Source: Minisyncoccota bacterium (GTDB taxonomy: Bacteria; Patescibacteriota; Minisyncoccia; Phycocordibacterales; JAGLOS01). Taken from it: 64,000 bases of DNA. Positions within the stretch are counted from its first letter, which is position 1. Each line of letters begins with the position of its first letter. The notes beneath the pieces are model-generated. The model was not told the origin of the DNA, did no database searches, and saw only the letters and a list, made by a program, of their open reading frames with translations. The DNA is taken from the NCBI GenBank assembly GCA_023137615.1, contig JAGLOS010000001.1, positions 1,067-65,066 of the forward strand. The letters run 5' to 3'. Position numbers and translations under genes: made by a program. Shown here piece after piece: positions 4,070 to 60,571 of this stretch.

Positions 4070-4088
4070 ACTCAACCTCCAAAAAACA

Positions 4089-4112
4089 AAAAGCTCCGAA
4101 TTCGGAGCTTTT
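4089..4112. terminator. bidirectional rho-independent terminator hairpin
   Basis: aaagctccgaattcggagcttt stem-loop flanked by A-run and T-run, between convergent genes. Confidence 0.6.
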
Positions 4113-4131
4113 TGTTTTTATGCAAAGATCC

Positions 4132-20002: not shown

Positions 20003-20206
20003 TTATTTCTCCCAATCCTCTACGATAAGCTTTTTGCCTACCTTACGAACGGTGAGTTTTTGTCTTTCTTTCCACCCGAGTTCTCGAATGTACCCTATCG
20101 GTAATGTTATGCCGTAACTTGAGCCACCGGCAAACTTGGTGAGCTTGCGAATGTTCTCTTCCCCTATTTTTCGCCGTGTTTTCATATACCCCATTATACC
20201 AAACAT
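20003..20206 (-). CDS. AbrB/MazE/SpoVT-family swapped-hairpin DNA-binding protein
   Basis: 50-67 aa depending on start. GGSSYGITLPIGYIRELGWKERQKLTV matches the AbrB/MazE fold motif. No adjacent toxin gene. Confidence 0.6.
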   Translation of the reverse strand: MFGIMGYMKTRRKIGEENIRKLTKFAGGSSYGITLPIGYIRELGWKERQKLTVRKVGKKLIVEDWEK

Positions 20207-20229
20207 CTACGTAGATATCTACGTAGATG
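20204..20229. promoter_or_regulatory. perfect 26-bp palindrome, candidate operator
   Basis: catctacgtagat|atctacgtagatg is two tandem self-complementary 12-mers atctacgtagat. It overlaps the 5' end of the AbrB-like gene and sits next to a TATAAT on the minus strand. Confidence 0.55.
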
Positions 20230-20369
20230 TTTGAGGTTAAAATAGATGAGTTCTGACCCTCCCCTCCTGATTTTTTTTGTTTCCTTTTTATTCTTTATGT
20301 TAAACTGGTATTAATTAGTGGTAATAATTACATTACGCAGAATTTGGATAAATTTCGATAAACAAAAAT

Positions 20370-25203: not shown

Positions 25204-26184
25204 TTACATATCCCAAGTGAAACCGTTCCCAAAATGACCATATTGCGCGGTTTGGTAAAATTGCGGTTTGCGCAGATCAAGAAATTCAATAATAGCTTGC
25301 GGACGAAGATCATAACCTTTTACTTTTTCTTCTCTTCCGTCAACAAACGCAGTTGCCGCAAGCGGCTCGGGGTGTCCAATAGCGTATGCGATCTTCACCA
25401 CAGCTTCTTTCGCTCCCGCTTTTACATGATCCACGGCAATCTTGCGCGCCATGTATGCGGCGCTTCTATCTACTTTTGTTGCATCTTTTCCGGAAAAAGC
25501 GCCTCCCCCAACCGCAACACGCGGACCATACGCGTCCACTACGATCTTTCTGCCTGTGAGTCCCGCATCCGCGGCAAACCCACCTATTCTCCATTTACCG
25601 TTTGGATTTTTCATCCATGTTTTTTTAATATCGCCGTCAATATATGAGGCTATTTCTTTTTCAAAAACTTCATTCAAAACGACATCGCTTAAATCCCCAC
25701 TTTCACATAATGAAGTTATCACGTTAATGATCCTGCCCTCTTTTACTGTAACTTGCGCTTTGCCGTCGTGCCGCCCCATTGATCTTATCAATTTCCGAGC
25801 AAGTGACATCTCAAGCGGCATGAATTCCGGCGTCTCGTCGGTGGCATATCCAACCATGATACCTTGATCCCCCGCACCTTCATTGTCAACTCCTTTTTTA
25901 ATTTCATTACTTTGTCCGGAAACATAAACGGATATATCAACGTCATCTGTATATCCATTGTCTTTATATACTTGTTTAGCAATACTCTTGTAAACATTTT
26001 CTTCAATTGGCGCGTTTGTGGTGATCTCTCCTGTAAGCACAATATTGCCGTGCCCGCCAAGTGTCTCTATCGCCACTCGCGAATACGAGTCATGCTCCAA
26101 ACAAAAATCTAAAATAGCATCTGAGATTTGATCGCACACTTTGTCGGGGTGCGCCCGAGATACTGCTTCTGCTGTTTGAATCAT
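25204..26184 (-). CDS. metK: S-adenosylmethionine synthetase (short form)
   Basis: 326 aa. GHPDKVCDQISDA, GAGDQG and GGGAFSGKD motifs. Confidence 0.85.
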   Translation of the reverse strand: MIQTAEAVSRAHPDKVCDQISDAILDFCLEHDSYSRVAIETLGGHGNIVLTGEITTNAPIEENVYKSIAKQVYKDNGYTDDVDISVYVSGQSNEIKKGVDNEGAGDQGIMVGYATDETPEFMPLEMSLARKLIRSMGRHDGKAQVTVKEGRIINVITSLCESGDLSDVVLNEVFEKEIASYIDGDIKKTWMKNPNGKWRIGGFAADAGLTGRKIVVDAYGPRVAVGGGAFSGKDATKVDRSAAYMARKIAVDHVKAGAKEAVVKIAYAIGHPEPLAATAFVDGREEKVKGYDLRPQAIIEFLDLRKPQFYQTAQYGHFGNGFTWDM

Positions 26185-26210
26185 ATTTGTAACGTAATTA
26201 TTTAATAAAC

Positions 26211-26278
26211 AAAAAACTTTCCTCGTGAGGGAAAGATACGTTTAAGTCTGCTAGACAATAGTATCTTTCCCAAAAGGG
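26211..26278 (-). promoter_or_regulatory. metK leader terminator/antiterminator (attenuator-type expression platform)
   Basis: On the metK strand: gggaaagatac (21 nt) gtatctttccc tcac gaggaaag tttttt. The 11-bp antiterminator stem and the ctttcc/ggaaag terminator stem share ctttccc. The T-run ends about 26 nt before the ATG. Confidence 0.5.
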
Positions 26279-26385
26279 TACGAATGGAGCACCTTCCAAT
26301 TTGTGTCACCAAAAAGTGGTTGCTGGACGGATCATAGAGTCGTATCTCTTCCCGCCGCTCGTGATATTTTTCTATATTCGATTAT

Positions 26386-26410
26386 AAATACATACTATCA
26401 GTATGTATTT
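26386..26410. promoter_or_regulatory. 11-3-11 palindrome adjacent to putative metK -10 box
   Basis: aaatacatact atc agtatgtattt lies immediately next to TATAAT (minus strand) about 200 nt upstream of the metK start. Confidence 0.4.
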
Positions 26411-26567
26411 AGGATAACAAGATTGACAAGAAAGTAGTTACAAAAAAATACGCTTGACATATTTTGTGCTGAGCTAGTAGGGAGTTAGTCGCGAACACTT
26501 AGTTTTTTGAATATTTCATTTCGTTTCACTCATAAAATATTCTTAAAAGGTCTTGCGGAATGGGTCC

Positions 26568-26692
26568 CAGCCCCTTCTCCTCCACTTCGTTACAGAGCGG
26601 GGACCCGCTGCTCCGTCTTTCAACTCCCGCTCTGGGCTACATAATACAGCAACCCCGAAGCGCTGCTTCAGGGTTGGTATTTTGTGCTGAGT
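26568..26692 (+). repeat. 121-bp direct repeat unit B, copy 1
   Basis: Identical to the 26776-26895 copy. Contains an inverted copy of the tRNA-Leu 3' end (tcaactcccgctctgggc) and the ctccacttcgttac motif shared with family R3. Confidence 0.75.
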
Positions 26693-26775
26693 TGGTAGGG
26701 AGCTGGTCACGAATCACTAAGCTTTTTGTTCGTCTTTCAGACTCCAAAAAACTAAGTGTTCGCGACCCCGACTCG

Positions 26776-26895
26776 CAGCCCCTTCTCCTCCACTTCGTTA
26801 CAGAGCGGGGACCCGCTGCTCCGTCTTTCAACTCCCGCTCTGGGCTACATAATACAGCAACCCCGAAGCGCTGCTTCAGGGTTGGTATTTTGTGC
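26776..26895 (+). repeat. 121-bp direct repeat unit B, copy 2
   Basis: 100 percent identical to copy 1. Runs directly into the 3' end of tRNA-Leu. Confidence 0.75.
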
Positions 26896-26977
26896 CCAGA
26901 GCGGGAGTTGAACCCGCACGGTCGCAATGACCACTAGCCCCTCAAGCTAGCGTGTATACCAGTTTCACCACCTGGGC
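26893..26977 (-). tRNA. tRNA-Leu(GAG)
   Basis: 85 nt with long variable arm. Anticodon loop TTGAGGG. T-arm GCGGGTTCAACTCCCGC. Confidence 0.8.
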
Positions 26978-27047
26978 AATATTAGGATTCTACCAAAAAT
27001 ATGCAAAAAAGAAAGAGCCGGTATTACCGGCTCTTTCTTTTTTAAAA

Positions 27048-30164: not shown

Positions 30165-30207
30165 CGCAAAATTAAAATCACCCTTTTGGGGTGATTTTAA
30201 TTTTGCG
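30165..30207 (+). terminator. terminator hairpin after tRNA-Val
   Basis: cgcaaaattaaaatcaccccttttggggtgattttaattttgcg is a perfect long inverted repeat. Confidence 0.6.
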
Positions 30208-60424: not shown

Positions 60425-60571
60425 AAGTCCATTCTATCATCATGCTTTGAATTATGAAACAAAAAGAAAAACGCCTTTCGAAAGGCGTTTTTCTTTTTGT
60501 TTGGAGCTTTAGGCACTCAAATTTGGAATAATGTTTTTTGTTTATTCCAAATTTGAGGGCCTATGATCATT

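What the first reader, a model, noticed from the sequence alone, without database searches (positions are those of the whole stretch)
26185..26420. metK leader with mutually exclusive terminator/antiterminator hairpins and a palindromic operator at the promoter
On the metK strand the 5' UTR contains gggaaagatac-(21 nt)-gtatctttccc. This overlaps a ctttcc/ggaaag terminator stem followed by TTTTTT about 26 nt before the ATG, the architecture of a riboswitch or attenuator expression platform. Upstream, an 11-3-11 palindrome (aaatacatact atc agtatgtattt) abuts a TATAAT. SAM riboswitches commonly control metK, but the aptamer region shows only loose similarity to SAM-I (GCAACC, GGTGC). It may be a divergent SAM class or a different mechanism.
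Basis: partly seen in the sequence, partly recalled or inferred. Interest (0 to 1): 0.5.

Follow-up and report, generated by a model that had tools for sequence, protein, structure and literature searches.

The report
SAM-I riboswitch before metK
The leader of the S-adenosylmethionine synthetase gene in this ultrasmall (Patescibacteria) bacterium is an ordinary SAM-I (S-box) riboswitch that stops transcription when SAM is plentiful; it scores just under the standard database cut-off, and the neighbouring promoter palindrome has no support as an operator.

Summary
On the minus strand, 26370..26258 is a full-length match to Rfam SAM-I (RF00162). It scores 33.8 bits, below the 44.4 gathering score, with E=1.4e-5. 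The same element sits before orthologous metK genes of related Paceibacteria. Four of those copies pass the Rfam cut-off. A clade-specific covariance model scores the window copy as typical (106 bits).

Across 31 distinct leaders, 87.8% of cells are paired and 24 of 37 pairs show compensatory changes. This includes the SAM-I pseudoknot, which is UACGA/UCGUA in the window.

It uses the 3' strand of P4/P1 and is mutually exclusive with a weak 6-bp terminator plus U6 that ends 26 nt before the ATG.

So this is SAM-I itself, not a new SAM class or a different mechanism.

The perfect 12-3-12 palindrome overlaps the core promoter. It occurs once in the window and is absent from every relative at 86-94% metK identity, so the operator idea is untested and unsupported.

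Interest is low.

The parts
25204..26184 (-). metK (S-adenosylmethionine synthetase, short 326-aa Patescibacteria form), the regulated gene
   Evidence: ORF list and translation. Pfam S-AdoMet_synt N, M and C domains. 100% identical to a Candidatus Pacebacteria MAG protein.
26258..26370 (-). SAM-I (S-box) aptamer. P1 is 26370-26363 with 26265-26258. P2a is 26358-26352 with 26330-26325. P2b is 26348-26346 with 26339-26337. P3 is 26324-26310 with 26303-26288. P4 is 26278-26276 with 26271-26269.
   Evidence: Rfam RF00162, model 1-108, 33.8 bits, E=1.4e-5. Clade model R1 scores 106.4 bits. Covariation in 24 of 37 pairs.
26340..26344 (-). P2 loop bases UACGA, 5' half of the SAM-I pseudoknot
   Evidence: Complementary to UCGUA in J3/4. 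The pair columns covary across leaders: AU/CG/UA, UA/CG, GC/AU.
26279..26283 (-). J3/4 bases UCGUA, 3' half of the pseudoknot
26229..26271 (-). Antiterminator hairpin. The 5' arm GGGAAAGAUAC (26271-26261) is the P4 3' strand plus J4/1 plus the P1 3' strand. The 3' arm GUAUCUUUCCC (26239-26229) contains the terminator 5' arm. The loop holds a small GUCU-AGC-AGAC hairpin.
   Evidence: I2. -17.6 kcal/mol as an isolated hairpin, and present in the MFE fold of the whole leader.
26211..26235 (-). Intrinsic terminator: CUUUCC-CUCACGA-GGAAAG (26235-26217) plus U6 (26216-26211)
   Evidence: Terminator scan. -5.5 kcal/mol. Orthologous leaders have equally short stems plus U-runs at the same place.
26385..26411 (.). 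Perfect 12-3-12 palindrome overlapping the core promoter; function unproven
   Evidence: I1. 0.05 expected per window. Single copy. Absent from relatives. Identical in same-species contigs L125 and L126.
26375..26386 (-). TATAAT (26386-26381) within T-ATAATCGAATA. This is the window's version of the conserved leader-start motif ACAAYTGAATA, and also a possible -10 box.
   Evidence: Alignment with relatives. Motif survey.
26394..26420 (-). Promoter elements homologous to those of relatives: -35-like TTGTTA (26420-26415), 15-nt spacer, -10-like GATAGT (26399-26394). The consensus scan gives an alternative: TTGTCA (26429-26424), 18 nt, CATACT (26405-26400).
   Evidence: Alignment of promoter regions. 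Promoter scan. The assignment is ambiguous because there are no TSS data.

Best explanation
The 5' leader of metK is a SAM-I (S-box) riboswitch that acts as a transcriptional OFF switch.

1. **Start of transcription.** Transcription starts within or just downstream of the palindrome/TATAAT region.
2. **Aptamer fold.** The nascent RNA folds into the SAM-I four-way junction (P1-P4). The junction is held together by a kink in P2 and a 5-bp pseudoknot between the P2 loop and J3/4.
3. **High SAM.** Ligand binding between P1 and P3 locks P1 (UAUC/GAUA plus outer pairs). GAUAC is then unavailable, so the downstream CUUUCC...GGAAAG hairpin forms. With the U6 tract it terminates transcription 26 nt before the start codon.
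4. **Low SAM.** P1 is not held. The P4-3'/J4-1/P1-3' strand GGGAAAGAUAC pairs with GUAUCUUUCCC (11 bp). This consumes the terminator's 5' arm, and RNA polymerase reads into metK.

**Shown:** sequence and structure membership, covariation, conservation of position before metK, and the mutually exclusive pairings.

**Inferred:** SAM binding, termination in vivo, and the transcription start.
For: 1. Rfam RF00162 matches over its whole length (1-108) at 26370..26258, E=1.4e-5. No other Rfam family gave a credible match in the region; the other five matches have E-values of 0.03-7.7 and lie far below their gathering scores.
2. The same element lies directly upstream of orthologous metK (72-93% identity). 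It scores 60.6, 58.4, 48.3 and 45.0 bits, all at or above the gathering score of 44.4, in L082, L081, L091 and L084. It scores 44.0 and 39.8 bits in L090 and L088.
3. A covariance model built from 26 Patescibacteria leaders scores the window copy at 106.4 bits, rank 16 of 32. It finds one hit only in the 64-kb window.
4. That model also finds the element immediately before metK in 46 of 80 distant loci, including Saccharibacteria, Clostridia, Bacillales and Chloroflexi.
5. For the SAM-I structure with pseudoknot, 87.8% of cells are paired, against 34-45% when partners are slid by 1-3 columns. 24 of 37 pairs have compensatory changes, and 0 of 500 shuffles reach the observed value on any measure.
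6. RNAalifold recovers P2a, P2b and P3 de novo.
7. The pseudoknot covaries: UACGA/UCGUA (window), UAUGG/CCAUA, CUGG/CCAG, UUGG/CCAA, CUAG/CUAG.
8. The antiterminator is -17.6 kcal/mol and the terminator -5.5 kcal/mol. The ligand-free MFE fold contains the antiterminator. With the aptamer helices enforced, the terminator forms.
9. The aptamer 3' strand can pair with the terminator 5' arm at <= -8 kcal/mol in 17 of 24 leaders. The window is the strongest at -17.0.
Against: - The window copy is below Rfam's gathering score (33.8 vs 44.4) and is not reported at default thresholds.
- P1 has A.C and A.A mismatches beyond its 4 inner pairs.
- In the SAM-I register, P3 has A.G and two U.U mismatches.
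- The K-turn 2n position is A instead of the consensus G.
- The terminator stem is only 6 bp.
- The nearest-neighbour energy of the aptamer-plus-terminator state (-31.1 kcal/mol) is 12 kcal/mol above the antiterminator state (-43.4). Switching must therefore rely on ligand and tertiary energy and on kinetics.
- One close relative (L124, 94% metK identity) has no riboswitch at all, and L087 has a degenerate one. The element is therefore dispensable in this clade.
- No binding or transcription data exist.
Confidence: 0.92

Rival explanations
1. The aptamer is a decaying relic. It no longer binds SAM well, the strong antiterminator wins, and metK is expressed constitutively.
For: - The Rfam score is sub-threshold.
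- P1 and P3 carry mismatches, and the K-turn has a G-to-A change.
- The antiterminator state is 12 kcal/mol more stable in the nearest-neighbour model.
- The riboswitch is lost in L124 and degenerate in L087, both close relatives.
Against: - All conserved core segments are intact (UAUC-ACGAG, GA...UGA, GCAACC, AAGGUGC, GAAAGAUA).
- The pseudoknot is a perfect 5 bp.
- The 11-bp antiterminator and the terminator plus U6 are perfect.
- The clade-specific model scores the window copy as average for its clade.
- The leader is identical in three independent assemblies of the species.
Confidence: 0.06
2. The aptamer belongs to another SAM class (SAM-IV, SAM-I/IV or an undescribed class), or it senses another ligand.
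For: Only the sub-threshold Rfam score. Some metagenomic relatives found with the same core pattern do lack the internal P4 (L093, L096).
Against: - The window RNA has P4 inside the junction (CCC-UUUU-GGG).
- It has the SAM-I pseudoknot and a full-length match to RF00162. After clan competition among overlapping related families, RF00162 is the match reported for this stretch.
- Orthologues pass the SAM-I gathering score.
Confidence: 0.02
3. The 12-3-12 palindrome is an operator for a dimeric repressor. This would add a protein-mediated layer, by promoter occlusion, on top of the riboswitch.
For: - It is a perfect palindrome far beyond chance: 0.05 expected per window.
- It covers the spacer, the homologous -10 (GATAGT) and the start region of the promoter.
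- It is identical in three assemblies of the species.
Against: - It is a single copy in 64 kb, even allowing 3 mismatches.
- It is absent from all 127 fetched loci.
- Relatives at 86-94% metK identity have a non-palindromic sequence at the same place. L082 shares only ATAGTATGTA.
- None of the seven neighbouring ORFs scanned matched a regulator family: four are L19, a pseudouridine synthase, an Na/Pi transporter and UPP synthase, and three have no Pfam match.
- A perfect arm pair can arise in one step by quasi-palindrome template switching, a known mutational mechanism (own knowledge).
Confidence: 0.15
4. The palindrome is a neutral, lineage-specific by-product. A few changes, or one template-switch event, occurred in an already partly symmetric, AT-rich promoter spacer. 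It has no regulatory role.
For: It is not conserved beyond the species. The L082 sequence AAATAAAAAGTATAGTATGTA differs from the window's AAATACATACTGATAGTATGTA at a handful of positions, confined to the left arm and the centre.
Against: It cannot be distinguished from a young operator with the data at hand. Perfect 12-bp arms are statistically unusual.
Confidence: 0.6

Closest known systems
SAM-I riboswitch / S-box leader (Rfam RF00162), for example the B. subtilis S-box genes and the Thermoanaerobacter tengcongensis aptamer whose crystal structure defined the fold (own knowledge: Grundy & Henkin 1998; Winkler 2003; Montange & Batey 2006)
   Same: - Four-way junction P1-P4.
- GA/UGA kink-turn region in P2.
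- P2-loop/J3-4 pseudoknot.
- Conserved core sequences.
- Location before metK.
- Terminator/antiterminator platform in which the P1 3' strand is shared with the antiterminator (P1 acts as the anti-antiterminator).
   Different: - The window copy scores 10.6 bits under the Rfam gathering score.
- The pseudoknot uses UACGA/UCGUA instead of the common CUGG/CCAG.
- P4 is minimal: 3 bp plus a tetraloop.
- P1 has only 4 uninterrupted pairs.
- The K-turn 2n base is A. In the clade it is G, U or A.
- The terminator stem is only 6 bp.
- The host is a Patescibacteria (CPR) organism. I found no published description of SAM-I in that group in the searchable library.
SAM-IV (RF00634) and SAM-I/IV variant (RF01725), same Rfam clan CL00012
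   Same: Same ligand-binding core (P1, P2, P3 and the GCAACC/GGUGC junction), and the same gene classes regulated.
   Different: These classes lack the P4 hairpin inside the junction and place a hairpin 3' of P1. The window RNA has the internal P4. Some metagenomic relatives (L093, L096) look like the P4-less type, but the window does not.
Protein operators at methionine-gene promoters, such as the palindromic MET box of MtaR/MetR in streptococci and the MetJ boxes of enterobacteria (own knowledge)
   Same: A palindrome overlapping the promoter of a methionine/SAM gene.
   Different: There is no sequence resemblance, no second site, no conservation and no cognate regulator found. This is a lead only.

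Membership tests
SAM-I riboswitch (RF00162) | Score at or above the curated Rfam gathering threshold (44.4 bits) | tested here: not met
   The window scores 33.8 bits, E=1.4e-5, full length, and is not listed at gathering. Orthologous leaders before orthologous metK score 60.6, 58.4, 48.3 and 45.0 bits. The shortfall is therefore a property of this copy and clade, not of homology.
SAM-I riboswitch (RF00162) | Four-way junction with helices P1, P2 (a/b), P3 and P4, supported by covariation | tested here: met
   All helices can be drawn in the window. On 31 distinct leaders, 87.8% of cells are paired, 24 of 37 pairs have compensatory changes, and slid controls give 34-45%. The two modelled P4 pairs are invariant, so they are uninformative.
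SAM-I riboswitch (RF00162) | Pseudoknot between the P2 terminal loop and J3/4 | tested here: met
   Window UACGA (26344-26340) pairs with UCGUA (26283-26279). The four core pseudoknot pairs covary: AU 11 / CG 11 / UA 4; UA 19 / CG 6 / AU 1; GC 28 / AU 1 / UA 1; GC 24 / AU 6.
SAM-I riboswitch (RF00162) | Kink-turn in P2 (3-nt bulge, tandem G.A/A.G) | tested here: inconclusive
   The 3' strand UAU-GA-U and the 5' strand A adjacent to P2b are conserved, so the G1b.A1n pair is possible. The 2n base is A in the window and G, U or A in the clade. A.A at 2b.2n is known to be compatible with K-turn folding (own knowledge: Lilley lab work on Kt-23). Folding was not tested.
SAM-I riboswitch (RF00162) | Conserved ligand-contacting core: P1 A-U/U-A pairs next to J1/2, the G of J1/2 (A)GAG, GCAACC (J2/3-P3) and AAGGUGC (P3 3' side) | tested here: met
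   The window reads UAUC-ACGAG ... GCAACC ... AAGGUGC ... GAAAGAUA. All upper-case consensus positions in these segments match in the cmscan alignment. They are invariant or near-invariant in the clade alignment.
SAM-I riboswitch (RF00162) | Located in the 5' leader of a methionine/SAM metabolism or transport gene | tested here: met
   It lies 74 nt upstream of metK. It holds the same position in relatives.
SAM-I riboswitch (RF00162) | Specific binding of S-adenosylmethionine | not testable with these tools
   Needs in-line probing, ITC or equilibrium dialysis.
S-box transcription attenuation system | Intrinsic terminator whose 5' arm can alternatively pair with the 3' strand of P1 (antiterminator), with P1 as anti-antiterminator | tested here: met
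   for the window. 17 of 24 related leaders have an equivalent duplex at <= -8 kcal/mol.
SAM-IV / SAM-I/IV variant | No P4 inside the junction; an extra hairpin and pseudoknot 3' of P1 | tested here: not met
   The window has an internal P4 (CCC UUUU GGG, 26278-26269). After clan competition among overlapping related families, RF00162 is the match reported for this stretch.
Transcription-factor operator | Site conserved in orthologous promoters and/or repeated before other regulon members, with a cognate regulator | tested here: not met
   Single copy in the window. Absent from 127 loci and from aligned orthologous promoters. None of the seven neighbouring ORFs scanned matched a regulator family, and three of them have no Pfam match. 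The rest of the genome could not be searched.

The most novel reading that the evidence does not exclude
The promoter-proximal part of this leader may hold something not yet described for S-box genes. It is seen in most Patescibacteria and in several Clostridia. It is always 5-8 nt after a canonical -10 box and 0-8 nt before P1, whether the regulated gene is metK or an unknown 140-aa protein. It could be a functional companion of the riboswitch, for example a -10-like element causing sigma-dependent promoter-proximal pausing, a second overlapping promoter, or a protein or RNase site. In this species it is combined with a young palindromic operator.
Probability: 0.15. Interest if true: 0.45.

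Novelty: new member of a known kind. Interest (0 to 1): 0.15.

Why it matters
The value is mostly practical.

- **Annotation.** A genuine SAM-I riboswitch in a candidate-phyla-radiation genome falls below the curated Rfam cut-off. Default annotation will therefore miss it, and probably many others in this clade. A clade-specific model recovers them easily.
- **Biology of the clade.** SAM-I before metK is widespread across Patescibacteria, including Paceibacteria and Saccharibacteria. These organisms have very small regulatory repertoires, so RNA-based feedback on SAM synthesis is one of the few controls they keep. It can still be lost, as in L124.
- **Genetic tools.** A recent perspective (PMC11665869) names riboswitches as promising tools for controlled expression in Patescibacteria. 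Native SAM-I leaders such as this one are natural starting parts.

None of this changes what is known about how SAM-I works.

Tried and rejected
- **Genome-contig scan.** Orthologues were obtained through exact-protein look-ups instead and through a DNA-pattern scan of metagenomes. Three of the 27 pattern hits (L099, L102, L107) were chance matches in GC-rich coding DNA and were dropped.
- **MAFFT alignment A3.** It misaligned P4 and the P1 3' strand, so RNAalifold missed P1. Re-alignment to a covariance model (A4) fixed most rows. A few rows (L084, L116, L118) remain shifted by 1-2 nt, which makes the P1 counts conservative.
- **MFE test for the antiterminator in relatives.** It was uninformative because the terminator competes within the same segment. 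It was replaced by a duplex calculation.
- **Does the 5' motif pair with the expression platform?** No consistent complement was found: 30 leaders, with only 1 at or below 5% of shuffles. Rejected.
- **Is the motif a general promoter feature of this genome?** No: 8 matches against 11 expected.
- **Extra copies of the palindrome.** None in the window or the loci.
- **Other Rfam families in the region.** Only chance-level hits: S774, PART1_3 and miRNAs.
- **Literature.** Searches for SAM-I in Patescibacteria/CPR found nothing specific.

Full report
**1. Observation**

On the minus strand the window holds a 326-aa ORF (26184..25204) with all three S-adenosylmethionine synthetase domains. It is 100% identical to a protein of a Candidatus Pacebacteria (Patescibacteria/CPR) MAG.
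- The 11/21/11 inverted repeat GGGAAAGATAC/GTATCTTTCCC is at 26271-26261 and 26239-26229.
- The CTTTCC/GGAAAG stem is at 26235-26217. It is followed by T6 at 26216-26211, which ends 26 nt before the ATG.
- The perfect palindrome is really 12-3-12 (26385-26411) and shares two bases with TATAAT (26386-26381).

Such repeats are rare by chance. 0.9 inverted repeats with arms >=11 nt are expected per 64 kb, and 0.05 palindromes with arms >=12 nt.

**2. What the leader is**

A sensitive Rfam scan of 25900-26900 gives one meaningful hit: SAM (RF00162) over the whole model (1-108) at 26370..26258. It scores 33.8 bits with E=1.4e-5, below the gathering score of 44.4. At default thresholds nothing is reported.

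I fetched orthologous metK loci (72-94% protein identity) by exact-protein look-up. An intergenic leader with the same element lies in front of metK in all of them, and the Rfam scan was run on seven. RF00162 scores 60.6, 58.4, 48.3 and 45.0 bits in L082, L081, L091 and L084, and 44.0 and 39.8 bits in L090 and L088. L087 gives nothing at E<=0.01. The window copy is therefore the low end of a continuous series of orthologous S-box leaders.

A metagenome scan with a core pattern (GATCCGTCCRGCAACC-N10-40-RAGGTGCY) added 24 more leaders. A covariance model built from 26 of these sequences scores the window copy at 106.4 bits. That is rank 16 of 32, so it is typical for its clade, and there is only one hit in the 64-kb window.

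The same model finds the element ending just before metK in 46 of 80 distant metK loci. These include Saccharibacteria, other Patescibacteria, Clostridia, Bacillales (Lysinibacillus, Halobacillus) and Chloroflexi. This ties the clade model to the classic S box.

**3. Structure**

RNAalifold on a plain MAFFT alignment recovers P2a, P2b and P3 de novo, with 12 compensatory pairs. I then counted pairs on the model-based alignment for the SAM-I structure with the pseudoknot written in:
- 87.8% of 1093 cells form standard pairs, against 34-45% when the 3' partners are slid by 1-3 columns.
- 24 of 37 pairs show changes on both sides.
- No shuffle out of 500 reaches the observed value on any measure.

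The P2-loop/J3-4 pseudoknot, a hallmark of SAM-I, is UACGA/UCGUA in the window. Elsewhere it is UAUGG/CCAUA, CUGG/CCAG, UUGG/CCAA, CUAG/CUAG or CUUG/CAAG.

The conserved core is intact: UAUC-ACGAG, GA...UGA, GCAACC, AAGGUGC and GAAAGAUA.

The window copy departs from the Rfam consensus in these ways:
- an A.C and an A.A mismatch in outer P1;
- an A.G and two U.U mismatches in P3;
- a minimal P4;
- A instead of G at the K-turn 2n position, a position that is G, U or A across the clade.

**4. Mechanism**

Its 5' arm is the 3' strand of P4, J4/1 and the 3' strand of P1. Its 3' arm contains the 5' arm of the terminator.
- As isolated hairpins, the antiterminator is -17.6 kcal/mol and the terminator -5.5 kcal/mol.
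- The ligand-free MFE fold of the leader (-43.4) contains the antiterminator.
- When the aptamer helices are enforced (-31.1), the terminator forms.

This is the textbook S-box OFF switch, with P1 acting as the anti-antiterminator. SAM binding and kinetics must supply the difference, which is inferred and not shown. The same logic is seen in relatives. In 17 of 24 leaders the aptamer's 3' strand can pair with the terminator 5' arm at <= -8 kcal/mol, and the window is the strongest. Short terminator stems of 4-7 bp followed by U-runs are the rule in this clade.

**5. The palindrome and the promoter**

The palindrome is statistically unusual. It occurs once in the window even with 3 mismatches allowed. 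It is absent from all 127 fetched loci.

Three assemblies of the same species carry an identical leader and palindrome. Relatives at 86-94% metK identity do not. L082 shares only ATAGTATGTA, which includes its -10-like TATAGT.

Aligning promoters shows the usual layout in relatives: TTGnCn, about 15-18 nt, TATAAT-like, 5-8 nt, ACAAYTGAATA, 0-8 nt, P1. By homology, the window's -10 is GATAGT (26399-26394), inside the palindrome.

A consensus scan instead proposes TTGTCA-18-CATACT. TATAAT itself remains a plausible -10. All three candidates overlap the palindrome, so a bound protein would occlude the promoter, but nothing shows that one exists. The seven neighbouring ORFs scanned include L19, a pseudouridine synthase, an Na/Pi cotransporter and UPP synthase. 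Three have no Pfam match and none matched a regulator family. A neutral origin is at least as likely. Quasi-palindrome template switching can perfect an inverted repeat in one step (own knowledge).

**6. Comparison with known systems and novelty**

The element meets every testable structural and contextual criterion of SAM-I, with two exceptions. The curated score threshold is not met, although orthologues meet it. The K-turn is plausible but non-consensus. It does not fit SAM-IV or SAM-I/IV, because P4 lies inside the junction.

I found no paper on SAM-I in Patescibacteria in the searchable library. A 2024 perspective only proposes riboswitches as future tools for these bacteria (PMC11665869). 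The family and mechanism are nonetheless long known. I therefore rate it a new, sub-threshold member of a known kind, of low interest.

**7. Limits**

There are no experimental data, and the transcription start is unknown. The rest of the genome could not be searched for further palindrome copies or further S boxes. The alignment used for pair counts was fitted to the model, which favours the structure. A few rows remain misaligned in the P1 3' strand, which works against it.

Noticed in passing
window 26375-26386 (-); L084, L088, L091, L094, L095, L097, L098, L100, L101, L105, L106, L109, L115, L116, L118, L002, L016, L011, L013, L077, L072, L040 (upstream of each aptamer): A conserved 11-nt motif ACAAYTGAATA (variants ACAATTAAATA, AAAATTGAATA) lies 0-8 nt before P1 of SAM-I leaders in most Patescibacteria and several Clostridia. 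It is always 5-8 nt after a canonical -10 box, so at about +1 to +11 of the transcript. It is present whether the downstream gene is metK or an unknown protein. It is not enriched elsewhere in the window and has no consistent complement in the expression platform. Its nACAAT part is itself -10-like, and it is TATAAT in the window. Function unknown.
   Followed up: partly
L095, L101, L116, L118, L119 (gene 39-54 nt after the SAM-I model match): The same SAM-I aptamer plus terminator precedes a roughly 136-192-aa protein (M..GTFFGFIP.RLE...PE...FP.NVLF...GSA.YEP...) with no credible Pfam match. This is an uncharacterised protein family apparently under SAM control in some Patescibacteria.
   Followed up: partly
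L120:2190-2350: In a relative with 94% identical metK, the SAM-I aptamer carries an insertion of about 150 nt inside the P3 loop. The rest of the riboswitch and the terminator are intact.
   Followed up: no
L124:276-444: Another relative with 94% identical metK has no SAM-I riboswitch at all (no R1 hit at E<=1). The space before metK holds a repeat-like element (AGCGACGTAGAGCGAGCG...CCGAGCCGAGGAGCTAAT). The same element is inserted between the terminator and metK in L087, which suggests a small mobile repeat.
   Followed up: partly
window 26440-26977: tRNA-Leu(GAG) (26977..26892, minus strand) is followed by a 460-nt highly structured repeat region (MFE z-score -9.5). It contains two 123-nt direct repeats (26565-26687 and 26773-26895, 99% identical), each holding an inverted copy of the tRNA's last 19 nt. 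It also has a 22-nt perfect long-range inverted repeat (26488-26509 with 26745-26766), and degenerate direct copies of the tRNA 3' end plus flank (ACTCCC...CACAAAATA). A same-species contig (L126) has one repeat unit fewer. It looks like stacked att-site remnants at a tRNA gene, or an unknown structured RNA. There is no Rfam match.
   Followed up: partly
window 20200-20233: A 17-0-17 perfect palindrome, CAAACATCTACGTAGAT|ATCTACGTAGATGTTTG. It lacks the A-run/GC-stem/T-run form of the many bidirectional terminators in the window.
   Followed up: no
L093, L096, L108, L113/L114: Some metagenomic SAM-I-like leaders with the same core lack a terminator. They place the ribosome-binding site or the metK start codon inside or next to the P1 3' strand, which suggests translational control. 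L093 and L096 also lack the internal P4, like SAM-I/IV.
   Followed up: no
window, whole: Most long perfect inverted repeats in the window are A-run/GC-stem/T-run bidirectional intrinsic terminators between genes, for example 4082-4119, 27005-27043, 30165-30207 and 60457-60502. By comparison the metK leader terminator is unusually weak.
   Followed up: no
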